From Ostreococcus lucimarinus (Eukaryota), in NCBI GenBank assembly GCA_000092065.1, contig CP000591.1: a stretch of 64,000 nt of DNA; one strand, written 5' to 3'. Below, piece by piece: positions 3,758-63,607 of this stretch (the first letter of the stretch is position 1; each line of letters opens with the position of its first letter). The position numbers and the translations under genes were made by a program. Below the pieces are notes generated by a model. That model was not told where the DNA came from, ran no database searches, and was given only the letters and a program-made list of their open reading frames with translations.

Positions 3758-4001
3758 CGCCGCGACCGAAGGCGCGGCGGCGCGCGGGCGTGTGACGCGC
3801 GATGGCGATCGACCACGGCTGTCGGAAAATTTGAAATTTCGGCGTCGAGGCGAGACGGACGCCGGCGAGGCGAGACGGACGACGACGCGATCGCGACGCG
3901 GAGACGCGAGGGATAAATAAGAAGAGCAATTAACAATGAATCATCAACGCGCGGGTGCGGGTGGGGCGAAGGAGGCGAAGGCGAAGGCGACGACGGACGC
4001 G

Positions 4002-5114: not shown

Positions 5115-5286
5115 GAATCGCGCGCCGCGACGCGTTCGGCGTTCGAGATCGCTCGGCGGCGATGCGCACCGATCGCCGCGCCGAGGTCTGGAGAATGAGT
5201 CGGCGCGCGCGGGGTCTTTGGGTCGGCGACGCGGCGCGGCGAAAATCGCTTCTGCTATTGCAAATCTACGTTTATGTGCGGTGTGA

Positions 5287-8200: not shown

Positions 8201-11200
8201 TGCGTTTGTTCCACCTGGATGATGTGCATCGTCGAGTGTGCGATCGTTTCCTCGCGTGATTCCACAAAGGATTCGAGACCGAATGCACCCGATCGTCTCT
8301 TTCTTCGCATGACGCCTCCCTCGCGTTCAATCTGAGCTCGCTCTTTTTCGTCCTCGACGCGTTCGCGCTTGATATTTGCGCGCAGAGTTTTCCATTTGGA
8401 TTTGTAATGCTTCAACCAGCCGTCGTAATCGGTCGCTCTGTCCGGTGCCGCCGCGCTAGCGCTGGCCGAACCTGGAGTCTTCGGCGCTTCTCCAGAAGGC
8501 GTCGCCCGTTGGTCCGGCGTTTGCGGTGCATCACCATCTCTTCGAAACGTTCTAACGCGCGGACGAGTTGGCGTCGACTTGGCGCCGCCGTCCTCGATGT
8601 CGAGAATATTCAAATCTTTACCCGCAAGCGGCGCACCATTCGCGAATTGCGTCTGAAACATCGTCTTCAAGTTGCGCTGAGAAAACTTGTCATTCTTTTC
8701 TCGAATGCGCTTGTGCAACCAATCGGGATGCTTCACGTCTGGGCATGGGTTTTCTACGCCCTGTAAAGCCGCAGGGATGCTGATGATTTTCTGAATGGCC
8801 CCAGCAAGACGCGTCTTGTAGTATTCCCAATCCACCATCTCGCGCATGTTTGGCATTTCGTCGTCGGCGCCTGGAAGCGCGTCCTTGGTCCACTCCTTCA
8901 AGTATGCGCGCGCCACGGCCGTTTCGGCGTTGAAAATACTCACTGGAATAGCCCGTGCCGACGTCGGAGCTCCGAGCGGTTTCTTCGAGATGATGTACTT
9001 ACACACAAGACCCTTGTCCTTAATCAAATCGGCGCCGAGGAATTGGGACAGACGATGCGCTGTGGTGAGAGACGTCGACTTGCGATCGCCGTAATCGATG
9101 GCGGGTTTGCTCATGACGCTCGATTCAGAAATGAACTCTAAGAGCTCTTCGTCGTCAAAGTTCCTGCCTTGCGTTTTGAGCATGTCAAACCAACGATTGC
9201 CGATGTTTCCGACAGCTTTGTACACCTCTTCCAGCGTCTCGCCCTTCAAAAAGTAGTCAAACACCTCCGCTTGGAAGACTTTGATCAACTTGAGCTCGCC
9301 TCGACGCTTGAGTTCGAATCCTTTCAATTCTTCCAACGAGCCGTCCTCGTTGAACACGGCGTATCGTTTTTTAATGAGCACGCCCTCTTCCTTAGAAGCT
9401 GGAAGAATCATCGCCTTATACGGACCGTCGACTTCAAACTCGATGCTCATTTCTGAGGAAACCTCGTACGAGGACTTGCCATCGACCACCTTCAACGTTT
9501 GGTACTGGTCGTTCGTATTCTGCAGCGCAGTCATACGATTGAGAACGACGCACGGGTACGAAATCTTGTATCCTTTGTTCTTATTTGGGAGCGTAAACGT
9601 GAATGTCTCCGGGAAAGCGCGGGGCAAGCAGCACCAAATACCATCCGTATCCAATTCAAGCGGCTTGCCGATGTCATCCACCAGTTGCTTCGCCATTTGA
9701 ATAATCTTTGCACCTGTGTTCGTGACGACCCCAGCCATCTCCATCGAATACCACCGCGCGCCTTTACGCATGACGTAGCCGTAAAAGGAGTTCAAAATAC
9801 ACTTGTGCGCCAGCTGAAGCGAATCATACAACACAACCATATTTGCCGCCTTTTGGATTTCGATGATGTTCCCGCTCTGTTTCGCTTCGTCCAAATTGTT
9901 CTTCCACTTCTTATTCTCCCCTTTGTACACGTAGCGACGATCACGAAACGCCTTCACGGTGTCGATGTAGAATGGGTTTTCTCGCATGCAGATACTCGCC
10001 TTTTTCGTCGCCGTCACCGGTTTCTCCATAACCTTTCTATAAACTTTTTGCGTATACAACTTCAGGCGCTGCTTCTTCTGCTCTTGTTGCTCTTCGTACG
10101 GAAGTTCAGCCCACGTTCGTTGTGGGCCACCGGGATGAGACGGCGCAAACTTATCAACTTGCAATTGCGCCTTGATGGCGGCATACTCGCTCGACGTCGA
10201 GGCAAAGTGCTCGCCGCGCCAAACCCATTCCATCTCACGCAGGCATCCCTTACCCGGTCGGTTGTAATCGCACGCGGCGCATACATCCTCATTGACGATA
10301 GCCGCCGGCTGCAAGCGGTTCGTCAAAATAATGTTCGGGTACATTGCTGCTACGTCCAAGTGATAAATCAGCGGTTCCATGTTCAAATTTGGGTTGTCGC
10401 GAAGGTACTCGAGCTTCTCGGCGATTTGCGCACGAATCTCATCGTAATCTGCGCAGTCATCCTTCCCCAGACCTTTTCCTTCGACCCGAAGGGCGTAGTC
10501 CAAATCGTCGTCGAGATTGTCAAGTAGTCTCTGATACCCTTCTGGATTCAACTTGAAGTCGCACGGGATGTCTGAACGGAACACGCCCGCCTCGAGACAC
10601 TCCACGTGACCGCCGATGTACGTTTCACTATTCAAGAGGTGACCTTCGTAGTATTTTTCACCGGCGCTGACTTGTTTGTTCGGGCAAACGATGTTTCCGT
10701 GGTACGCCTCAACCATGAGCAAAGCCTCGCACAGGGTACCGGAACCTTTGCGAAGGACTTCGTCCGGCGAGAGCGGAATAATCGTCGACAGCGCAAAGAT
10801 GAAAGGGTGCACGTACTTCATGTACAAGTAGTACGTACTCACGGCATCGGAAACGGAATACGACGCCATCATCTGAGGGTGACTTTGCGCGTACGGTAAC
10901 ATGTCTTCCGGGTCCACTTCGACCGGATCGTACTTTAACTTTGCCTTGGTCACCGCCTTCAAGCCGTGCGATCCGGCGGGGAGGTAGGAATCGCGCTTCA
11001 CCCACGCGAAGCAATCCAGGTGCAGCGCAGAATTACTTCGACATTCACCCGACTGTTCGCACTTGAAACCAATCTCACGGTACATATCCATCCCGTTCTT
11101 AGTCGCTCTAGTTTCGATGAATGGGAAATCGAAATAATCACCGTTGTACGTGACGTAAATGCTCGGTTGCGTCTCGCGCATATGATCAAACCACGTGCGG

Positions 11201-13195: not shown

Positions 13196-14673
13196 TCAAC
13201 TGATTTTCGCGGCGGCGGTTTGCGCCTTGCGACGAATCTCGCGCGCGGTGAAGTGGAACACGCCGCCGGATATCGTCAACAGCGCCGCGTTCACGCCCAG
13301 GGCGATGGGGATGCCGACTTCGTCCGCGAGCGCGCCGAGCGCGAGCGGGCCGAGGAGCAAACCGACGTCGCCGCACGTACGGTAAATCGCGAGCGCGCTG
13401 CCGCGAATGTTCTTGGGCGAAATATCCGCGGCGTACGCCGCGGGCGCGGTGCCCATCAAGCTTCCCGAGGCGGCCCAGAGAATAGACGCCGCGGTGAACG
13501 CCGTGGGATCGGTGGTGGTGCCCATGAGCGCGACCGACGCGGCCGAGGCGACGACGCACGGCGCGATGACGGCTTTGCGACCGACGGCGTCGGTGAGCGC
13601 GCTCGCCGGGCCGAGACCGAGCAACGACGTGACAGCCATGGCGGAAAACAGCGCGCCGAGCGATTCCGGCGTGAATCCAAAGTTTTGATACGCCAAGATG
13701 GGCAGCAGCGTCCCTCGACCGCCCGCGCCCGAGAAGAAGAGCGCCGCGTTCAAGCCGCACACGGCCCAGAAATCCATCGACTTGACGAGACGACCCATCG
13801 CCGCGTCTTGCGCCGTCGCGGGGTCCACCGCCGTCGTCGTCGCCGCGCCGTCGGGCGATTTCGTCTCCAACAGCTCGTACACCTGCCCGTCCCGATGCAC
13901 CACCGGTTTACCGAACTCATCCAACTCCAGGCACATCTTCGTGTCCTCGATCGGGTGCCCGTCGCAGTACCAGTGCTTGCTCGCCGCGAACTCCCTCTCG
14001 GGCTTTACCGACTCCGGTCGCGTCTCCTCGATCCTCGCGAACGAGTACACCGACGCGAACGAGCTCAGCGCCCCCACCGCGAGAAACGGCGATCGAATGC
14101 TCATCCCATCCGCCCCCGCGATGGCGCCTCCCAGCGCCGGTCCCGCCGCCGCGCCCGCCAGCACCGCCGCCTGATTCGCCCCCAGTATCCGCGCTCGCGT
14201 GTGCCGCGTCGACAGATCCGCCAGCATCGCCGTCGCGCCGCTCATGTACATCGAGCTCCCGATTCCCGCCACCGCCCGCGCGCACAGCAGCTCGCCCAGC
14301 CCCGTCGAGCAGTAGCTCCACGCCATGCCCGCCGTCGTCGCCGCCGGTCCCGCGATCATCAGCGGCCTGCGTCCGACCGCGTCGGCGTACCATCCGCACG
14401 GCAGGTTAAACAGCAACCTCCCCGCCGCGAACGCGGACATCGTCGCGCCGATCTCCGTCGCGTTCGCGCCGAATTCGCGCGCCAGCATCGGCAGCACCGG
14501 GCTCGCGCACGCGTGCCCGGACATGAGCGCCGCGCTCGTCAGGCACACCGACGCCACCGCGGCGTGGTCGCGCGCGAAGGCGTACGCGACGCCCGAGGGC
14601 GCGGACGCGTCGCGCGCGGACGCGGCGCGCGCGTCGGTGGATTCGCGCGAACCGGCGTCGTCCGCGCTCGGTC

Positions 14674-14728
<55 letters not shown>

Positions 14729-14808
14729 CGCGCGCGACGGCGCGGTGCGCGACGCCGCGGCGCGCGCGAGGACGCGCGCGCGACGACGCGCGAGGGCGAG
14801 CGACGCCA
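13196..14808 (-). CDS. Major facilitator superfamily transporter with organellar-type presequence containing poly-Ser tract (ORF-track extension to 15676 rejected)
   Basis: 12-TM-like hydrophobic pattern, MFS motif GWYADAVGRRPLMIAG; start placed at Met of MASLALARRRARVL (minus-strand ATG at 14808). Confidence 0.75.
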
Positions 14809-40627: not shown

Positions 40628-40905
40628 CCGACCGACCGACCGACCGACCGACCGACTGGTGTACAAACAGTGACACGCGAAATAACCATCGCCGCGACGC
40701 CACTGATGGGAATCTTCACGTATCGAAGAGCCGACCGACCGACTGGTGTACAAACAGTGACACGCGAAATACCCATCGCCGCGACGCCACTGATGGGAAT
40801 CTTCACGTATCGAAGAGCCGACCGACCGACTGGTGTACAAACAGTGACACGCGAAATAACCATCGCCGCGACGCCACTGATGGGAATCTTCACGTAATGA
40901 AGAGC
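40628..40905. repeat. 87-bp tandem repeat, about 2.8 copies, in kinesin/AsnRS divergent promoter
   Basis: Units start at 40657, 40744, 40831 (period 87), 1-2 mismatches per unit; each unit ends in (ccga)n. Confidence 0.9.
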
Positions 40906-40945
40906 CGCCGCCGGCACACCCCGACGCCGCGCGCGCGCGAGCGCC

Positions 40946-51247: not shown

Positions 51248-51491
51248 ATGACGTCCGCGTCGATGGTATCGACGCTCGCGGCGCGCGCGAGAGCGAACGT
51301 CGCGCTCGCGGTCGTCGCGATCGCGATCGCACTCGCGTTGTTCCCGCTGCTCGCGCCGCTCGCGCTGGGCGGTTTCGTCGTCGCGCGCGCGGTGCGCAGG
51401 GACGCGCGCGAGGAAGAGGACGTTTCGGTGAAGCCCGTCGCGGGGACGGGCGGGGACGTCGCGGTGCGAGAGAGGGCGCGGGTGGAGGTTG

Positions 51492-51551
<60 letters not shown>

Positions 51552-54133
51552 CGGTGGCGCTCACGGGCTCGGCGGCGATGCTGGCGAAGATGCGGAAGAG
51601 CAGCGCGTTGACTGGAGAAAAACGCGCGACCGCGGCGCAGGGTGCGAGCACGAGCGCGAAGGATGGTGTGGATGAGACGGCGACGAACGCGAAAGCGACC
51701 CGAACGTTTATATTGCACGGCGGCGAAGCGGCGTCGCAAATCGCGAAGGATTTGGCCGCGCAGGCGGAGAAAGAGCACGGAATTGCGTTGAATGTGATGA
51801 CAATGGATGATTTCAGAGACGTAGAGTTCGATAAAGAACCCTGCGCGGTGGTTTTCGTGGTCGAGACGGTAGAGAACGCGCAGCCGGCGGAAGCTGCGGG
51901 ATCTTGCGTGCGCTTCTTCAATCGGAAACGTAAGGAAGGGACGAATCAGGCTATGCTGGCGGGGAAGATGTCATACGCGGTTTTAGGACTCGGTGATACA
52001 AACTTGTTACTCGATCGCCAGACGACGACGGCGAAAGATTGTAACCAGGCTGCGCAGACGTTGGATTCGGCGCTCGCCGCTCTCGGCGGCGCTCGAATCG
52101 TCCCCCGCGGCGAGGCAAACGACGCCGTGGGTTTGGACGAAGACGTTGTACCGTGGGCCAAGTTGCTTTTCCCAAAATTGTCTGAAGTTCACAAAGGGAT
52201 TGAGGCGAAAAAAAACGCAAAGCTATGCTTCTTGTACGGCTCGCAGACCGGTAACGCGACGGAAATTTGCAAAAATCTCGCCGCCGAGGCGAGCGAGAAG
52301 GGGTACCCCGTGGAGGTGTGCGCGATGAATGAGGTCGAGCCAGAAGATGTCATCAAACCTGGCGCTGTGATTACGTTCGTCGTATCCAGCACCGGCGACG
52401 GTGACGCTCCGGATAACTGCGACACATTCTTCACTCGCCTCAAGCGCAAGGCAAAGAAGGAAAAAGGCGAGGGCGCCATCGGCGTCCAGTACGCCGTCCT
52501 AGGACTGGGTGATCAAAACTACAGCGCGTTCATGGCTGTGCCGCGTCAGTTCTCGCAAACGATGGAGAACTTGGGCGCGAAGTGTTTCGCTAAGCGCGGT
52601 GAATGCGACGACACACTTGGTTTGTACGAACAAGTTGACGCATGGACGAGCACGTTTTGGTCTCATCTCGAAGTCGCTCGAGGAAACTCACACAAGTTGC
52701 GCGAGGGTGAGACAATCGTGGAAGACGCTAATGCCGCCACTGAAGCTCCAAAAGGCGATTCGAAGCCACCGCAAGCGGCTGCGCCGGCGAAGAAAGTCGA
52801 AGGCGTGCCACCACTACCAATCTGCCGATCTGAAGTGCAGTGGCTGCCGAAAACGACAGAAGTGGTTGCTAATCGCGTCGCGCCCGGTCCAGATTCCGAA
52901 GGTGCATACACCGTCTCCTCGCCGTACATGGCGACTATTCACAAGCGTGAGGTACTCACAAACTTGAAATCCGATCGGCGAGTGTTGCACATGGAGTTTG
53001 ATCTCGGATCAAGTGGGATCTCTTACAAGCCGGGAGATTCCATTGGCATCGTACCGCAGAACGACGCCGAGCTGGTTCGAGCCATCGTCGATCGGCTGGG
53101 TCTCGATCAAGCCGCCATTTTCACGCTGAATTGGAAGAAAGGTGACACGAATGAACACGCGACTCATCCGTTGCCGCATATTCACACCCCGTGCACGGTA
53201 AAGAGTGTGTTCACGAATTATATCGACATCACGGGATGTCCGCGTAAGTCGCTCCTTCGCGTTCTCGCCGAACACTGCGGCAACGCGGAGGAAAAAGACG
53301 CCCTCTTGCACCTTTCATCGCGTGGTGGTCGAGCAGAATACGAAACACAGATTCGCGCGCAGTCACCGACGCTATTGACGCTCTTGAACAATTATCCGAG
53401 TTGTTGTCCTCCGTTAGCCGAGCTTTTAGATGCCCTCTCTCCGCTCGCGCCGAGACTGTATTCGATCACATGCGCGCCCGAGGTGGCACCAACAACGCCG
53501 TCGGTTGCCTTCAGTGTCGTGCGGTTCCAGGTACCCAGCGGTGAACATCGCCTCGGCGTCGCCACGAACTGGCTCGACGAGATATCGGTCGACGACAAGT
53601 GCGAGCACAAAGTCCCGGTGTACATCAAGCCAAGCTTGAAGTTCGGCCTGCCCGAAGACTCGAGCGCGCCGCTAGTGATGATTGGTCCGGGTACCGGCGT
53701 CGCACCATTCCGCGGTTTCCTCCAGTCCAGACGCGCTAAAGCACAAAAAGGCGGTCGATTATCTGAAGCTATGTTGTTCTTCGGCTGTCGCAAGGCAGAT
53801 GAGGACTTCCTGTACGAAGCCGACTGGAAGAGTTTCACCGCCGATGGCTCGCTGACAAAGCTCGTCTGCGCCTTTAGCCGCGAGACCGCAGAAAAGGTAT
53901 ACGTGCAGCACAAAATTGAAGAGCACGCCACCGAAGTCGCGCGCTTAATCTCTGAGGGCGCTTACGTCATGGTATGCGGCGACGGCGCGCACATGGCCAA
54001 GGATGTCCACGCCGCCCTCGTCCGCGTCGTCGCTCAAGCCGGCGTCTGCGGCGTCTCTGACGTCAAAGCCGCCGAGGCTCTCCTCGCCGACTTCACTAAA
54101 TCCGGTCGTTACGTCCGTGATATTTGGAGCTAA
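51248..54133 (+). CDS. NADPH-dependent diflavin oxidoreductase (CPR/MTRR/NDOR1 family) with N-terminal membrane anchor, poly-Thr linker and two tandem flavodoxin-like domains
   Basis: TM anchor NVALAVVAIAIALALFPLLAPLALGGFVV; degenerate flavodoxin-like domain 1; canonical FMN motifs CFLYGSQTGNAT, VVSSTGDGDAPDN, YAVLGLGDQNY; FAD RLYSITCAP; NADPH GPGTGVAPFRGF, YVMVCGDGAHMAKDV; C-terminal W. Confidence 0.85.
51502..51550. repeat. (ACG)n coding microsatellite giving 16-residue poly-Thr linker
   Basis: Seen directly; in frame within diflavin reductase. Confidence 0.9.
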
Positions 54134-54354
54134 CGCACGCGCGTTCGTATTGTTTAGATTTTAATTTCTCATTTCATTTCATTTCATTCCACTCCACTCT
54201 CGTTCCGTTTCACCAAACTCCTGCGGGCGAGTTGGGTGTTACGCGTACACGCGCGCCCCTCAGACCCGCGCGCGCTTCGCCGCGGGCTAAAATGCGCCGT
54301 CGTGATCGAGGAAACGACCCTCCGATGGTGTCGTCGACGTTCGTCGTCGTCCTC
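52619..54354. repeat. Segmental direct repeat, copy 1 (1736 bp; 3' 1.5 kb of diflavin reductase + 3' spacer + first 28 codons of GH1 signal peptide)
   Basis: Matches 59064-60799 at constant offset 6445 except 2 substitutions (52717 c/t; 53709 t/g); divergence begins exactly at 54355 vs 60800. Confidence 0.95.
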
Positions 54355-54522
54355 GTAGCAAGCAAGTTTAGAGCTTGCTAACTTTTGACTGTAGAGGAAC
54401 ACGCCAAGTTCGTCGATGGACTTACGAAGCTGGGCAAAGGCAACTGGCGTGGGATCATTCAACACTTCGTTCAGTCTCGAACGCCGACGCAGGTCTAATC
54501 ACACGCGATAGATCGGTCGAAC

Positions 54523-55386
54523 TTAAGTCTGGGGCATTTCAATCTCTCGGTCCAAAGCTTCCGCGCCCAACGCCGAATATCTACATCGTGAGCGTCGTGC
54601 ACGTGTTGAAACTGCCCACACTGACACCATGGTAGTCGCCAACAAGCCCAGCGTTACGTAGACAAGTGTCAAACAACTGAAGTAACTGTTTTGAGGCGAA
54701 CGCTCTGAGGCGAAACATAGAGCGCCGTGCAAATCTTCATCAGGTTCGAGCGTGATGTTACGTTGAAGAACGAATACGTATCGCTTGAAGGGCATTGATG
54801 CGCCACCTGAAGCTGTGATATGAAATTCCACCGTCTCAATCGAAGCAGATTTCTCAGGTGCGCACCAAATTAAGTTGTGGACGGTGGCTTTGCGCGTCGT
54901 GTACATGCGTCGACCAGAGCAGGCGGTGGCCGGCCTGTTCACGTTCCCATTCAAAAGCACGCCTTGATCGTGAAAGGATCCCGCAGAAGCGGTGATCAGC
55001 ATCATCGAATTCGGGTCTTCGTGCGATGCCGCGAGACCCAAGCGGCAGCCATCGCAATATTCTCGTTTACCGGGAGGGAACGTCCACGCAGCGGGGATCT
55101 GCCTCGTGGGTTCATTTTCGTCGTACTGCGCATCCTCAACATCAGTGTGGTTTGCCCAACTCAGCAGCACACTCGTGTTTGTGGCATCTATCGGTGCTCC
55201 GTGACCAGCAGCACGACGTGTGGGGTGTACGCGAGCCATCCCACCTTCGCAACGCGCGTCGAGGCGCAGTTCGGTCGGATACGACTCCACCAAAACCAGT
55301 CGCCAATCGAAGATTGCCACGGCGACGGCGGCGCATAGGCGCGCCGGATGCCGCAGACACATGTCGCCGCGTCGACATCGGTTCAT
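54523..55386 (-). CDS. Lineage-specific type-I membrane glycoprotein (signal peptide, about 210-aa ectodomain with 3 N-glycosylation sequons, C-terminal TM, short basic tail)
   Basis: Signal peptide MCLRHPARLCAAVAVAIF, sequons NTS/NHT/NIT, TM CLTLVYVTLGLLATTMVSVWAV; lower-GC codon usage. Confidence 0.5.
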   Translation of the reverse strand: MNRCRRGDMCLRHPARLCAAVAVAIFDWRLVLVESYPTELRLDARCEGGMARVHPTRRAAGHGAPIDATNTSVLLSWANHTDVEDAQYDENEPTRQIPAAWTFPPGKREYCDGCRLGLAASHEDPNSMMLITASAGSFHDQGVLLNGNVNRPATACSGRRMYTTRKATVHNLIWCAPEKSASIETVEFHITASGGASMPFKRYVFVLQRNITLEPDEDLHGALCFASERSPQNSYFSCLTLVYVTLGLLATTMVSVWAVSTRARRSRCRYSALGAEALDREIEMPQT

Positions 55387-55455
55387 AGGGTTGTAGCGCC
55401 CGTCCTGGTCCTAGCCCGTCATGTAGCGTTGACGCGCGTGTTCTGCCCCACCCAA

Positions 55456-55490
55456 GTCGTCTGTCGTCTGTCGTCTGTCGTCTGTTGTCG
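55456..55490. repeat. (GTCGTCT)n microsatellite in shared promoter of the island gene pair
   Basis: gtcgtctgtcgtctgtcgtctgtcgtctgttgtcg seen directly. Confidence 0.85.
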
Positions 55491-55938
55491 GGGGGTGTCC
55501 GTTCGCGACGGACAACATACCAGCAAAGCTATGACTCAAAGGCTTTGTTCGGTCACGCGCGCGCACGCTCGCACGACTGAGCGCCGTCGACTCCTGATTC
55601 CACACGTTCAGCGTCGTCGGAATCATACGGGAAACCCGGCAGAGAAGCGCGGGGAAGTACGCATCGCGTTCGCGCGACACTGTCCGACGTAAAACGCGTA
55701 TAATGAGACATTTTCCAATCAAGTTTTGTAAGAAGGTTGAAATATACTTAGTAAATAATTATGCGAGGCCCAATAGTTCTTTTAAATTATCTAATACGAC
55801 GTGCGACCGACCAAATCCGACTAATGCACGCGGCAAGTATGGAGGAGATATTTACATGGAGGATTATCCACTAGATATTTTTTGGATATTTACTCCGCAT
55901 CGAACGAGTTACGACTCAACAATAGAGGGACCGTTGCG

Positions 55939-55973
55939 CGTGGCCGGCACGTGCCGGCCACGCGCCGCCACGT
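55939..55973. promoter_or_regulatory. Perfect 22-bp palindrome gtggccggcac|gtgccggccac centred on CACGTG, plus second CACGTG 15 bp downstream; about 80 bp upstream of island gene B start
   Basis: Reverse complement identity verified by eye; CACGTG at 55947-55952 and 55968-55973. Confidence 0.55.
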
Positions 55974-56042
55974 GCGCGAGGTCCCTACGCCCGTCTCTCC
56001 GCAAGCATCACACGACGACGCGAGGAATTCTACGCGAAGAAG

Positions 56043-57713
56043 ATGCAAATCGAACGAAGGAAACGAAATGCGCGAGCGCTCTGCGCACTTGTTGTTTCTG
56101 CGACGCTTGCGAACACCGCGAGCGCGCAATTAACATACATCGCAGGATACGAGCCACGCTCCAACGTCGTCCAACATTCCCAAGTCGACTTGGACATAAG
56201 GGATATCATTAGTTCTTTCCCGAAGTGGAAGGGTGGAGACAGCATTTACAATGGCGGACTTCTGAACGACTGCACCACAGTGGCAGGCGCGTGCAACTGG
56301 AATGGGACCAGTAGTCTATACCCAACATTGTGGGACGGCACTTGTACGCACACCTGCCCTGCTGCTGACTCGGCAAATCCGGGCCAAAAGTGCACTTTAA
56401 GCGCGGCGGATGCATGTTTGTCCACTTACGGTATTTATAAGTATGGTAAGGGATCGTTCAAGGGGAACAACAAGGATGACGCGGCGTCGATGCGGACGCT
56501 TCGCGGGTTTGCAACGAAACTTGGTGATAAGGGTGCCTCAGCGCGTGTTGCCGCGAAAAACAACCCGTTTATCAACAAAATGAATAAATACTGGGCGAAA
56601 CAGGGGCTGAATGAATTGACTTGGGGTCAAGATATCATCGAAGCTGCTTTCAAAGGTACTTGTGTCAAGAACGGTAACTCGTGTGTAAAATCAGGGGGAG
56701 TAAATCTTCTCGATTTTGGCACGGTCGGAAACGACTTCAGGGTGGAAGTGATAAAGAAAGGTATTATTTACTTGAACATCTTTCCTTACGTCATTTGGGA
56801 ATTTCAAGACGCTATCAACGACTGCCATGGTGGTGACTTGGGCGCGAACGATGAAATTCCCGGAGGAGGTTCAGTACACGCTTGGGATGAAGCCGTAGCC
56901 TTTTACACTGGTTCGCTCGAGGGCATCTTAAAAGGCGGTAACAATGGCCTCGCCTCATGCGATGACGGTAATTGTGAGTTGCAATTTCAACTGTCAGATT
57001 ATCGCTGCACGAACTTCGGTACCTGCACCGCCGATGCTGATGGTGACCCGTGGAGTGGATACTCAAAAAATAATGAAGAGATCTTCAAACTCTTTCAACA
57101 AGGTGAAGGTGAAATTACTGAAGCCGCTGCAAGCTCCAATACTGCGGCGACGAAATGTGACTTGCCGGATCGCACCCACGAAAAGGCTGTTACGAAAATG
57201 CTTGTTCCTTTCGTGCAAGGATGCATGAGGTACTTGTGGAAGACAAAAGATTCGCAGAAAGCTAAGGAAGCAGGCGAGCTCTTTGCGTTTGCATCCGCTG
57301 CACTTCCTTTTATCGATGCGGTAGACCCTGTCGCCGCTACTAAGTTGTTCACACGTGCGTGGAAACTAGATTTCACTACTTACACGTATGAAGAAACTAA
57401 GCAGGGCATCGAAGGCACCCTTTCGAGACTCGGTGCTGGTGAGGGCATTGGTACAATATCTTGCGCTGACATTGGCGACCTCGTTGACAGCAGTGATCAA
57501 CTGCTCGCTGCTGGCTGCACGGATCCCTCATCTCCCTCATCTTCCAATAATGACACCACTCTCGGGCTGGGTATTGGGATTCCACTGGGTGCCATCGCAA
57601 TCACCGCGTTGGTATTTGTCGTGCTTTTGTGGCGAAAGAGCTCAGCAAACAGCAAGCGAGTCGAAGAGTTAACCATGCAGCTGAGAGGTCCTGGTAAGGA
57701 CTTCTATCCGTGA
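56043..57713 (+). CDS. Lineage-specific Cys/Gly-rich type-I membrane glycoprotein (signal peptide, about 500-aa ectodomain, Ser/Pro stalk, TM, short tail)
   Basis: Signal peptide ...CALVVSATLANTASAQ, more than 25 Cys in ectodomain, stalk PSSPSSSNNDTT, TM IPLGAIAITALVFVVLLW; lower-GC codon usage; 27-bp duplication at 3' end. Confidence 0.6.
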   Translation: MQIERRKRNARALCALVVSATLANTASAQLTYIAGYEPRSNVVQHSQVDLDIRDIISSFPKWKGGDSIYNGGLLNDCTTVAGACNWNGTSSLYPTLWDGTCTHTCPAADSANPGQKCTLSAADACLSTYGIYKYGKGSFKGNNKDDAASMRTLRGFATKLGDKGASARVAAKNNPFINKMNKYWAKQGLNELTWGQDIIEAAFKGTCVKNGNSCVKSGGVNLLDFGTVGNDFRVEVIKKGIIYLNIFPYVIWEFQDAINDCHGGDLGANDEIPGGGSVHAWDEAVAFYTGSLEGILKGGNNGLASCDDGNCELQFQLSDYRCTNFGTCTADADGDPWSGYSKNNEEIFKLFQQGEGEITEAAASSNTAATKCDLPDRTHEKAVTKMLVPFVQGCMRYLWKTKDSQKAKEAGELFAFASAALPFIDAVDPVAATKLFTRAWKLDFTTYTYEETKQGIEGTLSRLGAGEGIGTISCADIGDLVDSSDQLLAAGCTDPSSPSSSNNDTTLGLGIGIPLGAIAITALVFVVLLWRKSSANSKRVEELTMQLRGPGKDFYP

Positions 57714-58890
57714 GAGGTCCTGGTAAGGACTTGAGTCTTCTCTATGAGGTGCTGCTCCGATAGGCTACTACATTGAGCCCAGCACATTGAGCCCAAGAGC
57801 GAAGAGCTCGTTTAATTTAATGCACATACTACTTGAAATACCGTCTCACCATTTGCCGCCGTTTGCCGCCGCCGCGTTGATCGAGCATGACTTGGACGTG
57901 TTACCGAACGAAACGTAACGAGCCAGGTGGCGTTCGTAGGGTATTGAAATGCAGAAATTTGTATCCGTGAGTCGCAGCTAACTTTGAGCGCGACACGACG
58001 CGAGGTGCGCGCGAAGGCAAAAAGTTACATATTTTACCGTTTTTTTTCGAAATCACGTGTAGTGCATTATGGTACCACCTAAAACATGGTGGCTAATACA
58101 CACAGCACCACACTATAGATAAACACGACATATAATATGTACAGAACTACATTGAGCGGCTTGCCAAGCGTGGCCCACAGAAAGTTCTGGTTCGAGTCGC
58201 GCGTTTGTTGCGCGCAGCAGCTTTCCTTGCACTGCGAGCTCGAGTTTTCGCACGCTGGCTCAGTACTCTCTGTTCGTAAGGCGCGCGTGAAGGCTCTAAT
58301 CGAACGGAACTCCAGACGCGCGGCGTGTGGCATCGTTCGTCGCGCGCCGTAGGGCCACACACGTGCACTCCTCGCAGCAGAGACTACGCGTCTCCGCTCA
58401 CGTTCAGAGAACGAAGGGCGTGCGACGCAGTCTCGTCGGCACTGGAGCATTCTGAGGGCGCGCGCGAGGGTGACACTTGCTTACGCTGATGTTCTCGGCG
58501 GAGGTCCCGCGTACAGAGCGTCGCCGCGACGGCAAGTGACATGCAGCCACTCGAAGTCGTGCGACGAGCGGCGACGACGCGGTTGTAACGCACACGCGCC
58601 GGCCCCGGGCACGAGACGAAACCGAAAAGACGGTTCGTAGAAAAACGCGCGTGTTTGGCACGCGCCCGGTGAAACGTGAGCGAAAAACCGAAAAGTATAC
58701 CTATAGGGTGTAGCGCTTCGATGTATGATGCAAATGGAATTACGGTACTTTATACGAATGCCCCTAACGACGAGACGATACCGATTGGGTAAAGTTCTGG
58801 CGACCCGCCGCTACGCCCAACACAAATTGGTCCCACAGATGCATTCCCCAAAGTGAGGGACTGGAATCAAAGGCGGGCAAGAAAACCGCC

Positions 58891-59063
58891 GCATGGCTCG
58901 CACCCCGTGCACTGCCAGCGTCGCCCGAGGCCACGCTCCGCGTGAAAGTCGGCGCATCGCGTGCGAGCGCTGCCGCATAACTCACACCCCGTGTGCCGCC
59001 ATTATCGTCGCCTGAGGCCACGCCCCGCGAGAAAGTCGGCGGATCGCGTGCGAGTGCCGTCGC
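58891..59063. repeat. Two tandem degenerate about 85-bp repeats abutting the island/copy-2 junction
   Basis: caccccgtgcactgccagcgtcgcccgaggccacgctccgcgtgaaagtcggcgcatcgcgtgcgagcgctgccgc vs caccccgtgtgccgccattatcgtcgcctgaggccacgccccgcgagaaagtcggcggatcgcgtgcgagtgccgtcgc; second ends exactly at 59063. Confidence 0.7.
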
Positions 59064-60799
59064 GGTTTGTACGAACAAGTTGACGCATGGACGAGCACGT
59101 TTTGGTCTCATCTCGAAGTCGCTCGAGGAAACTCACACAAGTTGCGCGAGGGTGAGACAATTGTGGAAGACGCTAATGCCGCCACTGAAGCTCCAAAAGG
59201 CGATTCGAAGCCACCGCAAGCGGCTGCGCCGGCGAAGAAAGTCGAAGGCGTGCCACCACTACCAATCTGCCGATCTGAAGTGCAGTGGCTGCCGAAAACG
59301 ACAGAAGTGGTTGCTAATCGCGTCGCGCCCGGTCCAGATTCCGAAGGTGCATACACCGTCTCCTCGCCGTACATGGCGACTATTCACAAGCGTGAGGTAC
59401 TCACAAACTTGAAATCCGATCGGCGAGTGTTGCACATGGAGTTTGATCTCGGATCAAGTGGGATCTCTTACAAGCCGGGAGATTCCATTGGCATCGTACC
59501 GCAGAACGACGCCGAGCTGGTTCGAGCCATCGTCGATCGGCTGGGTCTCGATCAAGCCGCCATTTTCACGCTGAATTGGAAGAAAGGTGACACGAATGAA
59601 CACGCGACTCATCCGTTGCCGCATATTCACACCCCGTGCACGGTAAAGAGTGTGTTCACGAATTATATCGACATCACGGGATGTCCGCGTAAGTCGCTCC
59701 TTCGCGTTCTCGCCGAACACTGCGGCAACGCGGAGGAAAAAGACGCCCTCTTGCACCTTTCATCGCGTGGTGGTCGAGCAGAATACGAAACACAGATTCG
59801 CGCGCAGTCACCGACGCTATTGACGCTCTTGAACAATTATCCGAGTTGTTGTCCTCCGTTAGCCGAGCTTTTAGATGCCCTCTCTCCGCTCGCGCCGAGA
59901 CTGTATTCGATCACATGCGCGCCCGAGGTGGCACCAACAACGCCGTCGGTTGCCTTCAGTGTCGTGCGGTTCCAGGTACCCAGCGGTGAACATCGCCTCG
60001 GCGTCGCCACGAACTGGCTCGACGAGATATCGGTCGACGACAAGTGCGAGCACAAAGTCCCGGTGTACATCAAGCCAAGCTTGAAGTTCGGCCTGCCCGA
60101 AGACTCGAGCGCGCCGCTAGTGATGATTGGTCCGGGTACCGGCGTCGCACCATGCCGCGGTTTCCTCCAGTCCAGACGCGCTAAAGCACAAAAAGGCGGT
60201 CGATTATCTGAAGCTATGTTGTTCTTCGGCTGTCGCAAGGCAGATGAGGACTTCCTGTACGAAGCCGACTGGAAGAGTTTCACCGCCGATGGCTCGCTGA
60301 CAAAGCTCGTCTGCGCCTTTAGCCGCGAGACCGCAGAAAAGGTATACGTGCAGCACAAAATTGAAGAGCACGCCACCGAAGTCGCGCGCTTAATCTCTGA
60401 GGGCGCTTACGTCATGGTATGCGGCGACGGCGCGCACATGGCCAAGGATGTCCACGCCGCCCTCGTCCGCGTCGTCGCTCAAGCCGGCGTCTGCGGCGTC
60501 TCTGACGTCAAAGCCGCCGAGGCTCTCCTCGCCGACTTCACTAAATCCGGTCGTTACGTCCGTGATATTTGGAGCTAACGCACGCGCGTTCGTATTGTTT
60601 AGATTTTAATTTCTCATTTCATTTCATTTCATTCCACTCCACTCTCGTTCCGTTTCACCAAACTCCTGCGGGCGAGTTGGGTGTTACGCGTACACGCGCG
60701 CCCCTCAGACCCGCGCGCGCTTCGCCGCGGGCTAAAATGCGCCGTCGTGATCGAGGAAACGACCCTCCGATGGTGTCGTCGACGTTCGTCGTCGTCCTC
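59064..60799. repeat. Segmental direct repeat, copy 2 (identical to 52619-54354 apart from 2 substitutions)
   Basis: See copy 1. Confidence 0.95.
59067..60578 (+). pseudogene. 5'-truncated duplicate of diflavin reductase (FAD/NADPH ferredoxin-reductase-like module only); no in-frame ATG at 5' end, upstream in-frame stop at 59013-59015, F->C change in conserved APFRGF motif
   Basis: ORF-track start is non-ATG (ttg); lacks both flavodoxin domains; substitution at 60154 alters GPGTGVAPFRGF to GPGTGVAPCRGF. Confidence 0.6.
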
Positions 60800-62515
60800 G
60801 TCGGCGTCGTCGCCCGCGCGAGCGCGCAGACCCACGCGCACCAACACCATCGAGGCGAAACGAGCCACGGCGACGGAAACTTTGTCACCTTCCCACCGTC
60901 GTTCGCGTTCGGCGTCGGAACGTCGGCGTGGCAGATCGAAGGAAACGGTGGTGATCGCCCGCGATCGGTGTGGGACGCGTTCGTGAGCGAACTAGGAGAG
61001 GAGAAGAGAGTGGAGGCGGAGCGCGGGATCGGCTTTCACGAGCGATACGCGGCGGATGCGCAAATGATGGCGGATGCGGGAGTGAAACATTTCAAAATGT
61101 CCCTGAGCTGGCCGAGGTTGATGCGCGCCGACGGGAGCGCGATCGATGAAGGGTTCGAGTATTATCAGAACGTTTTCGGGGCGCTACGCGAGCGAGGCGT
61201 GGAACCGCACGTGACGCTGTTTCACTGGGACACGCCGATGTGGTGCTGCGCCAACGAAACGATCGCGAGCGGGCGTGGGAGCGTGTGCGAAGGAGCTTGG
61301 GTGAAGGATGAAATCTTGAAAGATTTTGAGAAGTACGCGGATGCGGTGTTTAGTAGACTCGGGAAGGGGATAAAATATTGGACCACAATTAGTGAGCCAA
61401 AAACCGTCGCAGAGATGGGCTACGGTGCGGGCCTTCACGCGCCTGGGCGTCGGAGCGTGGAAGAACAACTTAAAGTGGGGCATAATATGTTGCGTGCACA
61501 CGCTTTGGCGGTGGCGCTCTATAGGGAGAAATATTCCCAGTTTGGAGGGAAACTTTCAATCAATTTGAATAGCGCTTGGGTCGAGCCGGCGTCGGATTCG
61601 CCGGACGACGTGCGTGCGGCGGCAAACGCGATGGATGAAGAGCTTGGATGGTTTGCCGATCCTATTTATAAAGGTGACTATCCGGCGAGCATGCGGGCGA
61701 GATTGGGGAGCTTTCTTCCGGAGTTCACCGAGGAGGAGCGCGTGCTCGTGAAAGGGAGCGTCGATTACTTTGCGCTCAATCACTACACGTCCTACTTCGC
61801 CAAGCATGTGACCGACGCGCAAGCTTCGTCGCAGCTTGGTTTGAGCGGCAGACCTCAGCCGTGGGAGATCACACTAGAGTCAGAAAAGAGCAAGAAACCA
61901 ATCGGCAAGGAGGCGCAAAGCGACTGGTTGCACATCGTGCCGTGGGGATTAGAAAAGGTTTTGCTGCACATCAAGGACAGATACGACGATCCAGCGATCA
62001 TGATCTCGGAGAATGGCGTCGATATCGCCGAGAGGGGCGATATCGCGGAAACTCTGGACGACACAACGAGAGTCAAGTTTATCGATGCCTATCTCGGAGC
62101 CGCTCGCGAGGCGATGCGTAAAGGCGCAAACGTTGTGGGGTACTTTTATTGGTCGATGTTCGACAACGTCGAGTGGGTGGATGGGCGATCGAAACGATTT
62201 GGTTTGGTTTATGTCGATTACGACGGCAAGTACGGCGAAAAGATGAAGCGCTATCCAAAGAAATCTCTCGAGCACTTCTCCTCCTACATGCGAGGAGAGC
62301 ACGCCGAAGAACCAACCCTCGGTGCCGCGCGCGTGCGACACTCGCTCGAAGACTCTTTCGTTCAAGTCGATCCGAGGCGTCAGGGCGAAATCTTCGCATT
62401 GCAAGGCATGGCGTTGACCATCGCCTGCGTCTACGCCGCGGCAGCGGCGTTCGCCGGCGGCGTCAAAATCGTCGAGCAAGACGTCGAGCAAGACGAACGC
62501 TCGTCCCTCGTCTGA
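60737..62515 (+). CDS. Glycoside hydrolase family 1 beta-glucosidase, secreted (signal peptide); alternative start at 60770
   Basis: Signal peptide MVSSTFVVVLVGVVARASAQ; GH1 motifs FGVGTSAWQIEG, HWDTP, acid/base TISEP, nucleophile ISENG, YFYWSMFDNVEW. Confidence 0.85.
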   Translation: MRRRDRGNDPPMVSSTFVVVLVGVVARASAQTHAHQHHRGETSHGDGNFVTFPPSFAFGVGTSAWQIEGNGGDRPRSVWDAFVSELGEEKRVEAERGIGFHERYAADAQMMADAGVKHFKMSLSWPRLMRADGSAIDEGFEYYQNVFGALRERGVEPHVTLFHWDTPMWCCANETIASGRGSVCEGAWVKDEILKDFEKYADAVFSRLGKGIKYWTTISEPKTVAEMGYGAGLHAPGRRSVEEQLKVGHNMLRAHALAVALYREKYSQFGGKLSINLNSAWVEPASDSPDDVRAAANAMDEELGWFADPIYKGDYPASMRARLGSFLPEFTEEERVLVKGSVDYFALNHYTSYFAKHVTDAQASSQLGLSGRPQPWEITLESEKSKKPIGKEAQSDWLHIVPWGLEKVLLHIKDRYDDPAIMISENGVDIAERGDIAETLDDTTRVKFIDAYLGAAREAMRKGANVVGYFYWSMFDNVEWVDGRSKRFGLVYVDYDGKYGEKMKRYPKKSLEHFSSYMRGEHAEEPTLGAARVRHSLEDSFVQVDPRRQGEIFALQGMALTIACVYAAAAAFAGGVKIVEQDVEQDERSSLV

Positions 62516-63607
62516 CGCCATCGCCCACGATCGACACATAGCAAACAAATTCGCTTAAACGAGTAAACAGTTGAGACTTAGCGCGCGTTGAAACAATCAC
62601 ATGCACGGTATTGAACCATGGCGTGTACACGAGTCTCCGAAGACTCGCGTGCTTCGGGCGCTCCGCGCCATCGCGTCCACGTCGACGCGATGTGACCTTC
62701 GCCACGATCTCGCCCTCCTCGAGCGAGGTTTCGCGAACGCGCTTGCTCGCGACGAGCTCCGGCGCCGCGCAAAGCTTCGCGAGACGACTCGCAGCCGCGC
62801 GCGCACATATCGCTCGGTCGCCCGCGTCTTGACCGGGCGCGAGCGCGATTTGCGCGAGCCGCGCGAAATTTCGGTCCCCCGCGACGCGCGCGTTCTCCGC
62901 CACGCGTCGGTGGCGTCGCAGAAACTTTTTCACGTGCGTCTTCTTCGTCATGCCTCCATGTGACGTTTCGTCTCGGCGTCTCGACCTTGTGACGCGGCCT
63001 CGGACGCGCGCGAGGGCACCTCGGCACTCTGCGACGCGCGCGCGACTCGGCGCGGTCGTCGCGGACGCGTCGCGAAAGAAGAAAAAAAGTCGAGCATCGA
63101 ACCGCGCGTCGTTCGAGCGCCGCGCCGCGGCGCGCGCGACGCGCGGACGCGCGAGATGGGGCGCGTTGAAGCGGCGTTTCTCGGCGCCGGATCCCGCCTC
63201 GGGCGGCGCCTCGGGCGTCGCGCGCGCGACTAGCAAGACACGAAAACGAAGGAAAGAAAGCGCGTACGAATTCTTTTGAATCGATGTGCGCGGCGATGGA
63301 CGCGCGCGCGCGCGTTCGCGCGCCGACTCGCGCGATCGTCGTCTCCGAGACGGGCCGCGCAGACTGACCCTCGCGCAGAGGCCGACGCCAGAAGACACGC
63401 GAAACAAGGCGGCGATAGCGTCCAAACTATCGCTCGCCTGCGGCAGGTTAACCCAGGGTTGACCCAAGGTTGACCCAGCCGCAGTACTACACCCTCGCGG
63501 CGCGAGGACGCGAAGGAGGGACAGCTCGCTCGCGCGATCTCGTCGAACGACCTAGAGCCCTCGAAAGTAGCGATTGTAGTACGTCGCGTCACTCGCAGCC
63601 TCGCGCG

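What the first reader, a model, noticed from the sequence alone, without database searches (positions are those of the whole stretch)
52619..60799. Near-identical 1.7-kb direct repeats flank a 4.7-kb low-GC island (U-X-Y-X-D structure)
Positions 52619-54354 and 59064-60799 match over 1736 bp with only 2 substitutions. The repeat comprises the last about 1.5 kb of the diflavin reductase gene, its 3' spacer and the first 28 codons of the GH1 signal peptide. Copy 1 completes the full reductase but ends in a truncated GH1 start (MVSSTFVVVLVASKFRAC-stop). Copy 2 is a headless reductase fragment but restores the intact GH1 gene. Between them lie 4709 bp whose GC content is about 15-20 points lower than everything else in the window. 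This X-Y-X geometry, with both copies in native context, is what single-crossover (Campbell-type) integration of a circular molecule carrying homology X plus cargo Y would produce. Alternatives are a tandem duplication followed by replacement of the middle, or an assembly collapse/misjoin. The very high identity implies recency or gene conversion. In Mamiellophyceae, low-GC hypervariable regions (outlier chromosomes) carry surface-glycan and virus-resistance-associated genes, so a small low-GC cargo island inside a normal-GC gene array is unusual.
Basis: seen in the sequence. Interest (0 to 1): 0.85.

Follow-up and report, generated by a model that had tools for sequence, protein, structure and literature searches.

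The report
Relocated iron-uptake genes flanked by duplicated target
In the marine green alga Ostreococcus lucimarinus, a 4.7-kb piece of chromosome carrying two probable iron-uptake surface-protein genes was inserted between two unrelated genes, copying 1.7 kb of the landing site so both neighbours survived; this is a real, ocean-wide natural rearrangement of a known kind, not an artefact or foreign DNA.

Summary
The repeat is real: 52619-54356 and 59064-60801 (1738 bp) differ at 2 bases. The stated GC contrast is overstated. Y is 53.5% GC against 60.8% for the window, and other parts of the window are as low.

The window is Ostreococcus lucimarinus CCE9901. Independent assemblies, including 550-620 kb contigs and many ocean metagenomes, carry the same U-X-Y-X-D structure with identical junctions. 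Relatives have reductase directly followed by GH1, so the insertion is derived.

Y is not viral or foreign. Other Ostreococcus lineages hold the same segment at a different native locus, and homology stops exactly at Y's ends. Both junctions have at most 1 bp of microhomology. There are no terminal repeats and no transposase.

Best explanation: one illegitimate end-joining or template-switch insertion with a long target duplication. O. tauri transformants show the same geometry with a 518-bp duplication. A Campbell-type crossover remains possible but is less parsimonious.

The cargo is a divergent gene pair: Fea1 (iron-uptake family) and a Reeler-like membrane protein whose distant homologues are fused to cytochrome b561.

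In wild genomes the two X copies are identical. One HiFi-style contig shows at least 2.4 tandem X-Y units. Fea1 is hypervariable. This is a new member of a known kind, of moderate interest.

The parts
51248..54133 (+). Complete diflavin reductase (methionine-synthase-reductase-like) CDS, formed by U plus X1
   Evidence: Pfam Flavodoxin_1, FAD_binding_1 and NAD_binding_1. Homologues are named methionine synthase reductase.
52619..54356 (+). X1, left copy of the 1738-bp direct repeat: reductase 3' 1515 bp, spacer and GH1 start
   Evidence: Identical to X2 in all wild contigs.
54292..54381 (+). Truncated GH1 start fused to Y (MRRRDRGNDPPMVSSTFVVVLVASKFRAC-stop)
54357..59063 (.). Y, the inserted 4707-bp segment, 53.5% GC. 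It is a copy of a chromosomal segment whose native locus lies elsewhere in sister lineages.
   Evidence: Homology to native-context contigs L012, L016, L024, L035 and L036 starts at 54367 and ends at 59064.
54394..54498 (+). Relic Myb-like exon
   Evidence: Pfam PF00249, E 9.6e-7, 29.3 bits. It is also a relic in the native locus.
54523..55386 (-). ORF287: single-pass membrane protein with a Reeler-like ectodomain
   Evidence: The ORF is kept open in all relatives, with dN/dS about 0.5. AF2 model pLDDT 71. Top Foldseek hits are the F-spondin reeler domain. Distant homologues are fused to cytochrome b561.
55387..56042 (.). Shared intergenic region of the divergent ORF287/Fea1 pair (presumed bidirectional promoter)
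   Evidence: Read from the sequence. Promoter function is inferred.
56043..57713 (+). [quoted passage not shown]
   Evidence: Pfam PF07692, 42.1 bits against a cut-off of 25. 100% identical to an O. lucimarinus CCE9901 predicted protein.
56100..56900 (+). Hypervariable tract of the Fea1 ectodomain in wild alleles
58897..59063 (.). Two units of a degenerate ~84-bp repeat at the right end of Y. The array continues in the native locus.
59064..60801 (+). X2, right copy of the direct repeat
59067..60578 (+). Headless reductase fragment (FAD and NADPH domains only). It carries the F-to-C change that is private to CCE9901.
   Evidence: Called as 471-478 aa with FAD_binding_1 and NAD_binding_1 in wild contigs.
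60770..62515 (+). Intact GH1 gene, formed by X2 plus D (alternative ATG at 60737)
   Evidence: Pfam Glyco_hydro_1, 1.5e-114. A 581-aa gene is called in wild contigs.

Best explanation
A single ancestral illegitimate-recombination event occurred in the O. lucimarinus lineage. It was either end joining of a captured DNA fragment or a replicative template switch. It placed a 4.7-kb chromosomal segment between the reductase gene and the GH1 gene. The segment carries a divergently arranged pair of cell-surface genes: a Fea1-family protein, which is a probable iron-uptake component, and a Reeler-domain membrane protein.

The two joins to the target lay 1738 bp apart, one inside the reductase CDS and one inside the GH1 signal peptide. 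That stretch was therefore duplicated. U+X1 still encodes the whole reductase with its 3' end. X2+D still encodes GH1 with about 1.7 kb of native upstream sequence. A hit that would have killed either gene was thus neutral.

Since then the two 1.7-kb direct repeats have stayed identical, through recency and/or gene conversion. They also act as substrates for homologous recombination that changes copy number, giving tandem X-Y arrays and possibly pop-out.

Shown: the structure, its single origin, the ancestral empty state, the endogenous origin of Y, the junction sequences and the cargo families. Inferred: the repair pathway, whether the event was a copy or a move, and the iron-uptake function.
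For: 1. Real and widespread. The ORF that spans the right junction is indexed in 269 blocks of the collection. Four 550-620 kb contigs and several metagenome scaffolds are collinear with 48.7-64.0 kb of the window at about 99% identity. The bases immediately flanking X are the same in every contig, so both junctions are identical and the origin is single.

2. The empty site is ancestral. L007 and L008-L011 (20 contigs, up to 126 kb) have UAA/SDE2 - reductase - GH1 - DUF829 with one X and no Y.

3. Y is endogenous.
- Native-context contigs L012, L016, L024, L035, L036 and L037-L046 carry relic Myb - ORF287 - Fea1 - right part. They sit between abhydrolase and GH130-like genes on one side and an adaptin gene on the other.
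- Homology to the window begins at 54367 and ends at 59064.
- Substitution distance to the island is about 1% in the right part of Y and 4-9% in the left part.
- No IMG/VR relatives were found for either cargo protein.

4. Junctions.
- Left: X ...CCTCGT | AGCAAG..., against native ...AAACCCT | AGCAAA.
- Right: ...GCCGTCGC | GGTTTG, against native ...GCCGTCGC | GTAGCT.
- Each has at most 1 bp of microhomology.
- There are no inverted terminal repeats, no tRNA or Rfam match, and no transposase or integrase domain in the ORFs of Y that were scanned.

5. Precedent. In O. tauri line T3, an NHEJ-like vector insertion was flanked by a 518-bp direct duplication of the target gene (PMC8002553).

6. Repeat dynamics. 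X1 equals X2 in all wild contigs, and both window differences are private to CCE9901. L029 is Y'-X-Y-X-Y-X' with near-identical units, and two more similar places were not shown.
Against: - The final structure is formally identical under Campbell integration of an X+Y circle, NHEJ capture between unequally broken sister chromatids, MMBIR/FoSTeS, and fill-in of widely staggered nicks. Sequence alone does not separate these.
- The actual donor allele of CCE9901 was not available, so the microhomology was judged against 1-9% diverged native loci.
- A 1.7-kb target duplication is more than three times the experimental precedent.
- The one close-relative empty-site contig, L007, is a mosaic. It is 4-5% divergent left of about 53.1 kb and at most 0.4% divergent to the right. 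It could be a recombinant, a revertant or a strain-mixed consensus.
- The iron-uptake role of the cargo rests on family membership and domain fusion only.
Confidence: 0.62

Rival explanations
1. Campbell-type origin. A circular molecule made of X plus Y recombined by a single homologous crossover with the chromosomal X, giving U-X-Y-X-D.
For: - The geometry is exactly that of a single-crossover integrant, with both copies in native context.
- Gene targeting by homologous recombination has been applied in O. tauri (PMC4855317 reports knockout attempts). The primary paper on HR targeting and HR removal of foreign DNA is recalled from my own knowledge and was not read here.
- Contig L029 consists only of tandem X-Y units. 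Its name ends in '_c', which I recall from memory as an assembler's circular flag. Circles or arrays of X-Y therefore exist in nature.
Against: - The circle itself needs two illegitimate joins, X-end to Y-start and Y-end to X-start, each with at most 1 bp of microhomology. The model therefore adds a step rather than removing one.
- Y carries no replication, maintenance or integration genes.
- L029 is equally explained by unequal crossing-over after the island already existed. Its length, 2.39 units with a 2.5-kb terminal overlap, does not prove a circle.
Confidence: 0.15
2. Two-step origin. First a tandem duplication of X gave U-X-X-D. Later Y inserted exactly at the X|X novel junction, or replaced material there.
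For: Tandem duplications are common, and the X|X junction would be a non-essential landing site.
Against: - No contig with U-X-X-D was seen among the loci fetched.
- Both Y junctions coincide to the base with the ends of X. This would require an insertion precisely at the duplication joint with no loss or gain of bases.
Confidence: 0.1
3. Y is foreign or mobile DNA (prasinovirus-derived, horizontally transferred, or a transposon or integrative element), and the repeats are its footprint.
For: Y has lower GC and GC3 than its neighbours. It is present in one lineage and absent from others.
Against: - The same segment sits in a conserved native chromosomal context in sister Ostreococcus lineages, at 1-9% divergence.
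- No relatives were found in IMG/VR for either protein. The method is pattern-based, so sensitivity is limited.
- There are no terminal inverted repeats, no short target-site duplication, no transposase or integrase, and it is single-copy in the window.
Confidence: 0.03
4. Assembly artefact: a collapsed or misjoined repeat in the reference.
For: Near-identical 1.7-kb repeats are a classic source of misassembly.
Against: Both junctions and the complete arrangement recur in independent assemblies from different samples and technologies.
Confidence: 0.01

Closest known systems
NHEJ-like insertion of transforming DNA in Ostreococcus tauri with direct duplication of the target (line T3, PMC8002553)
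   Same: An unrelated DNA fragment is inserted in the same genus. The insert is flanked by a direct duplication of target gene sequence. The joins have little or no homology, and small irregularities occur at the junctions.
   Different: Here the event is natural and is fixed or widespread in ocean populations. The insert is the alga's own chromosomal segment rather than a plasmid. The duplication is 1738 bp instead of 518 bp, and it spans parts of two genes so that both stay intact.
Campbell-type single-crossover integrants and pop-in/pop-out gene targeting
   Same: The same U-X-Y-X-D geometry. Direct repeats allow excision and amplification by homologous recombination.
   Different: No episome or vector functions are present in Y. 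The X/Y joins are illegitimate. A circular precursor has not been demonstrated.
Replication-based complex rearrangements (FoSTeS/MMBIR 'duplication with inserted sequence at the junction'), from my own knowledge of the human CNV literature
   Same: A tandem duplication whose joint contains a templated segment copied from elsewhere, with breakpoints showing 0 to a few bp of microhomology.
   Different: These are not documented in Mamiellophyceae as far as the held library shows. Whether the donor copy is retained, as MMBIR predicts, could not be tested.
Ot-Fea1 of O. tauri, and Fea1/ISIP2a phytotransferrin-type iron-uptake proteins (PMC4855317)
   Same: The cargo protein matches the Pfam Fea1 family. 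[quoted passage not shown]
   Different: It has a single-unit 556-aa architecture, whereas the roughly 950-aa two-unit relatives are only 47-50% identical to it. Iron regulation and iron binding have not been tested for this protein. It is hypervariable in the wild.

Membership tests
Campbell-type single-crossover integrant | Insert flanked by two direct copies of the homology region, each in native context | tested here: met
   X1 and X2 are 1738 bp with 2 differences. U+X1 gives the whole reductase and X2+D gives the whole GH1.
Campbell-type single-crossover integrant | A circular donor molecule carrying X plus Y exists or existed | tested here: inconclusive
   L029 holds at least 2.4 tandem X-Y units and its name carries a circular flag. 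A chromosomal array explains it equally well.
Campbell-type single-crossover integrant | Donor has episome or vector functions (replication, selection, integration) | tested here: not met
   The scanned ORFs of Y match only Fea1 and a relic Myb exon. ORF287 and the other scanned ORFs have no Pfam hit, and there is no RNA gene.
End-joining or template-switch insertion with target-site duplication | Junctions with zero to a few bp of microhomology and no long homology | tested here: met
   At most 1 bp at each junction, judged against native-locus contigs and the empty site. The caveat is that those native contigs are 1-9% diverged from the true donor.
End-joining or template-switch insertion with target-site duplication | Insert ends fall at arbitrary positions of the source DNA | tested here: met
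   The left end lies about 37 bp upstream of a relic Myb exon. The right end lies inside a degenerate 84-bp repeat array that continues in the native locus.
End-joining or template-switch insertion with target-site duplication | Direct duplication of target sequence flanking the insert | tested here: met
   1738 bp here. The precedent in O. tauri is 518 bp.
DNA transposon, Helitron or integrative element | Terminal inverted repeats or other element-specific termini, a short target-site duplication, and a transposase or integrase gene | tested here: not met
   No inverted repeats in 50-64 kb. No such Pfam domains.
Fea1 / ISIP2a (low-iron-inducible periplasmic protein, PF07692) | Significant match to the family profile above the curated cut-off | tested here: met
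   42.1 bits against a cut-off of 25, E 7.6e-11.
Fea1 / ISIP2a (low-iron-inducible periplasmic protein, PF07692) | Induction by iron starvation and iron binding or uptake | not testable with these tools
   Known only for Ot-Fea1 of O. tauri (PMC4855317).
Reeler domain proteins (as in F-spondin and ferric-chelate reductase 1) | Sequence-profile match to Pfam Reeler | tested here: not met
   No Pfam hit for ORF287 at E <= 0.01, or for the ten distant homologues scanned at E <= 0.1.
Reeler domain proteins (as in F-spondin and ferric-chelate reductase 1) | Reeler fold | tested here: met
   Top Foldseek PDB hits are 2zot and 3coo, the reeler domain of F-spondin: E 1e-4, probability 1.0, TM (target) 0.5-0.6. 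The model has pLDDT 71. Confidence is moderate.
Mamiellophyceae low-GC outlier chromosome regions | The segment derives from a large low-GC outlier region | tested here: inconclusive
   In L035 the native locus is a low-GC islet (46-56% GC) of about 6 kb, flanked by 57-65% GC on both sides. The chromosome assignment could not be tested.

The most novel reading that the evidence does not exclude
The X-Y unit is a recombination-driven, amplifiable and excisable gene cassette. The 1.7-kb repeats let cells pop out X-Y circles and reinsert them by homologous recombination into empty-site genomes, or expand tandem arrays. This would tune the dosage of a hypervariable surface iron-uptake module and spread it through the population. 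The Fea1 ectodomain would be under diversifying selection, for example from iron regime or as a target of viruses.
Probability: 0.12. Interest if true: 0.75.

Novelty: new member of a known kind. Interest (0 to 1): 0.45.

Why it matters
- It is a clean natural example, with the ancestral empty site, native donor-type locus and both junctions in hand, of how a very compact haploid genome can accept a gene-sized insertion inside coding sequence. A long target duplication rebuilds both neighbouring genes, so nothing is lost.
- It links a laboratory observation, vector insertions with target duplication in O. tauri, to real genome evolution in the ocean.
- The repeats create a built-in substrate for copy-number change.
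- The cargo is relevant to iron limitation of marine phytoplankton. One of its two genes is among the most variable sequences at this locus in wild populations.
- No paper in the held library describes this locus.

Tried and rejected
- **Lab construct or vector insertion.** Rejected. Y has no vector-like genes and the structure is present in Tara and JGI ocean metagenomes.
- **Prasinovirus origin.** Two IMG/VR scans, with ORF287 and Fea1, gave no relatives.
- **tRNA or ncRNA landmarks.** None found.
- **Functional Myb gene cut at the left end.** I first read the left end of Y as a 40-nt intron of a functional Myb gene. Comparison with the native locus shows the GT is supplied by X and the Myb exon is a relic with no upstream exon.
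- **Exact-product look-ups of GH1** from two candidate start codons found nothing.
- **Look-up of the native-type Fea1 representative P0018** gave only a 2.4-kb contig.
- **Does CCE9901 keep a native copy?** I could not determine this.
  - No contig with an island-type Y (Fea1 at least 87% identical) was seen in native context.
  - The Logan unitig runs unbranched through the last 31 bp of Y, which are identical in the native loci.
  - Together these weakly suggest a move or loss of the donor.

Full report
**Observation**

The two stretches 52619-54354 and 59064-60799 are identical except at 52717 (C/T) and 53709 (T/G). The match runs two bases further, so X is 1738 bp (52619-54356 and 59064-60801) and Y is 54357-59063.

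- X holds the last 1515 bp of a diflavin reductase. Pfam finds Flavodoxin_1, FAD_binding_1 and NAD_binding_1. Its homologues are named methionine synthase reductase.
- X also holds the spacer and the first 11 codons of a GH1 gene counted from MVSS, or 22 counted from MRRRD.
- Copy 1 ends in MRRRDRGNDPPMVSSTFVVVLVASKFRAC-stop. Copy 2 leads into an intact GH1.
- The GC statement is exaggerated. Y is 53.5% GC, X is 56.9% and the window is 60.8%. Several other 2-kb bins of the window are equally low.

**Organism and reality of the structure**

- The Fea1 protein encoded in Y is 100% identical to a predicted protein of Ostreococcus lucimarinus CCE9901, on a 593,542-bp record.
- A Logan contig from an independent read set equals window 54327-59093. 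That is Y plus exactly 30 bp of X on each side, as expected for a k=31 unitig that breaks at a two-copy repeat.
- Metagenome contigs L003, L004 and L013 cross the left junction.
- The 115-aa ORF that spans the right junction is indexed in 269 blocks of the collection. Four contigs of 550-620 kb (L025-L028) carry the whole arrangement, and scaffolds L030/L031 carry it through GH1. All are collinear with the window at about 99%. L032 and L033 cover Y through X2 into D only.
- In every contig the bases flanking X are the same. The structure is therefore not an artefact, and it arose once.

**Ancestral state**

- A close relative, L007, has UAA/SDE2 - reductase - GH1 - DUF829 with a single X and no Y.
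- A more distant Ostreococcus lineage, with a reductase 73% identical at the protein level, shows the same order in 20 contigs of up to 126 kb.
- Caveat: L007 is a mosaic. It is 4-5% divergent from the window left of about 53.1 kb, at most 0.4% divergent to the right, and 99.8% identical in GH1. It could be a recombinant whose crossover lay inside X, a pop-out revertant, or a strain-mixed consensus.
- The deeper relatives carry the conclusion that the empty state is ancestral.

**Origin of Y**

- A metagenome scan with Fea1 returned contigs in which a Y-like segment lies in a different, conserved context. One side has abhydrolase and GH130-like genes and the other an adaptin gene. Between them lie the relic Myb exon, ORF287, Fea1 and the right part of Y.
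- Homology to the window begins at 54367 and ends at 59064, which are the ends of Y.
- Substitution distance between the island and these native loci is about 1% in the right part of Y and 4-9% in the left part.
- In L035 the native locus is itself a low-GC islet (46-56% GC) of about 6 kb inside 57-65% GC DNA. The low GC of Y was therefore inherited and does not indicate foreign origin.
- No IMG/VR relatives were found for either cargo protein.
- All contigs with an island-type Y that include flanks are in island context. The Logan unitig does not branch at the last 31 bp of Y, which are identical in the native loci. This weakly suggests that the island lineage has no second copy, through either a move or loss of the donor.

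**Junctions and mechanism**

- Left junction: ...GTCGTCCTCGT | AGCAAGCAAGTTTAGAGC. The native locus reads ...AAACCCT | AGCAAAAATCGAGTTTTAGAGC and the empty target reads ...CCTCGT | CGGCGTC.
- Right junction...GAGTGCCGTCGC | GGTTTGTACG. The native locus reads ...GTCGC | GTAGCTCGCC and the target reads ...CACACTT | GGTTTG.
- Each join has at most one shared base.
- There are no terminal inverted repeats, no short target duplication, no transposase or integrase, and no tRNA or Rfam match.
- The left end has a 7-bp inverted repeat, AGCAAGC/GCTTGCT. The right end lies in a degenerate 84-bp repeat.
- These features fit illegitimate end joining or a microhomology-poor template switch. The two joins to the target lie 1738 bp apart, which duplicates the interval.
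- The same outcome, with a 518-bp direct duplication of the target gene around the insert, was documented for NHEJ-like vector insertion in O. tauri (PMC8002553).
- A Campbell crossover of an X+Y circle gives the same product, but it needs the same two illegitimate joins first. I rank it second.

**Consequences**

- Both breakpoints lie in coding sequence. The duplication is what keeps the reductase (U+X1) and GH1 (X2+D, with its native upstream 1.7 kb) intact.
- By-products are an orphan GH1 promoter and start pointing into Y, and a headless FAD/NADPH-domain fragment.
- In all wild contigs X1 and X2 are identical. The two differences in the window are private to CCE9901: one is synonymous in X1, and the other changes F to C in the GTGVAPFRGF motif of the headless copy.
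- Flank divergence among these genomes is only 0.15-0.2%. Identity of the copies therefore fits either a recent origin or gene conversion.
- Contig L029 is Y'-X-Y-X-Y-X' with near-identical units, and two more similar places were not shown. Arrays of at least three units, or circles, therefore occur in nature.

**Cargo**

[quoted passage not shown] In O. tauri, the related Ot-Fea1 is strongly induced by iron starvation and is found loaded with iron (PMC4855317).
- ORF287 is kept open in all relatives, with dN/dS about 0.5.
- Its AlphaFold model (pLDDT 71) best matches the reeler domain of F-spondin.
- A full HMMER scan found about 20 homologue clusters. Four of the ten distant ones scanned (P0250, P0251, P0252, P0258) fuse this domain to cytochrome b561 above the Pfam cut-off. 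From my own knowledge, that architecture recalls ferric-chelate reductase 1.
- The pair is therefore plausibly an iron-acquisition module. This is inference, not a demonstrated function.

**Population variation**

- Within otherwise 99.8%-identical islands, the Fea1 CDS differs by 2.6-4.7%.
- The differences cluster at 56100-56900 in mosaic tracts. dN/dS is 0.85-1.5 at dS 0.03-0.05.
- One island, L026, carries two tandem copies of a Fea1 only 48.5% identical to the window's. The swap boundaries are near 55513 and 57546, so the transmembrane helix, tail and 3'UTR are conserved.

**Verdict**

- It is a natural duplication-insertion of a known kind in a new and well-documented case. The added interest comes from the cargo and from the copy-number and allele dynamics.
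- No paper in the held library describes this locus.

Noticed in passing
window 56043-57713, especially 56100-56900; L025-L032: Fea1 is hypervariable among wild islands. It is 2.6-4.7% divergent at the nucleotide level against 0.15-0.2% in the flanks. The differences fall in mosaic tracts, with dN/dS 0.85-1.5. Across contigs that share near-identical TM, tail and 3'UTR sequence, allele types are as little as 48-56% identical at the protein level.
   Followed up: partly
L026 (reverse-complemented) 3808-8798, replacing window 55513-57546: One wild island carries two tandem copies (period about 3040 bp) of a 504-aa Fea1 type. That type is identical to the one in L018 and L019. L028 instead has a 361-bp deletion (57185-57546) inside Fea1.
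   Followed up: partly
L029 (ENA ERZ25073868, ctg73727_2x_c, 15,424 bp): The contig consists only of X-Y units (period 6460 bp, at least 2.4 units, units about 99.97% identical). Its name carries what I recall as a circular flag. It is either a tandem amplification or an extrachromosomal circle. Two further similar places were not shown.
   Followed up: partly
L007 versus window 41436-64000: The empty-site contig is a mosaic. It is 4-5% divergent left of about 53.1 kb (inside X) and at most 0.4% divergent to the right, with GH1 99.8% identical. This is compatible with a crossover inside X between a diverged empty-site lineage and the island lineage.
   Followed up: partly
window 62617-63580: A 965-bp segment between GH1 and the DUF829 gene is absent from L007. 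Island-lineage contigs are collinear across it and have an ORF of 254-320 aa called in this interval. This is a second indel polymorphism next to the island.
   Followed up: no
window 54523-55386 (-): ORF287 belongs to a small family of about 20 clusters among 1.84 billion representatives. It has a conserved C...HP...HGxP ectodomain with a Reeler-like fold. Four of the ten distant members scanned carry a C-terminal cytochrome b561 domain above the Pfam cut-off.
   Followed up: yes
window 54357-54379: A 7-bp inverted repeat, AGCAAGC ... GCTTGCT, lies right at the left junction. The native loci have only AGCAA...TTGCT. It could be a templated snap-back filler or simple divergence.
   Followed up: no
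window 40644-40907: Three tandem copies of an 87-bp unit at 98-100% identity, unrelated to the finding.
   Followed up: no
window 51486-51560 and 14660-14745: Long GAC/CGA triplet runs. The one at 51.5 kb encodes a poly-threonine tract in the N-terminal region of the reductase ORF.
   Followed up: no
L005 and L006 (Logan SRR1179203 and SRR1179204) = window 54327-55965 and 54327-55955: Two contigs 100% identical to the window start at the X boundary and stop about 80 bp upstream of the Fea1 ATG. If these runs are RNA-seq, this would mean transcription across the X1/Y junction. The run type could not be checked.
   Followed up: no
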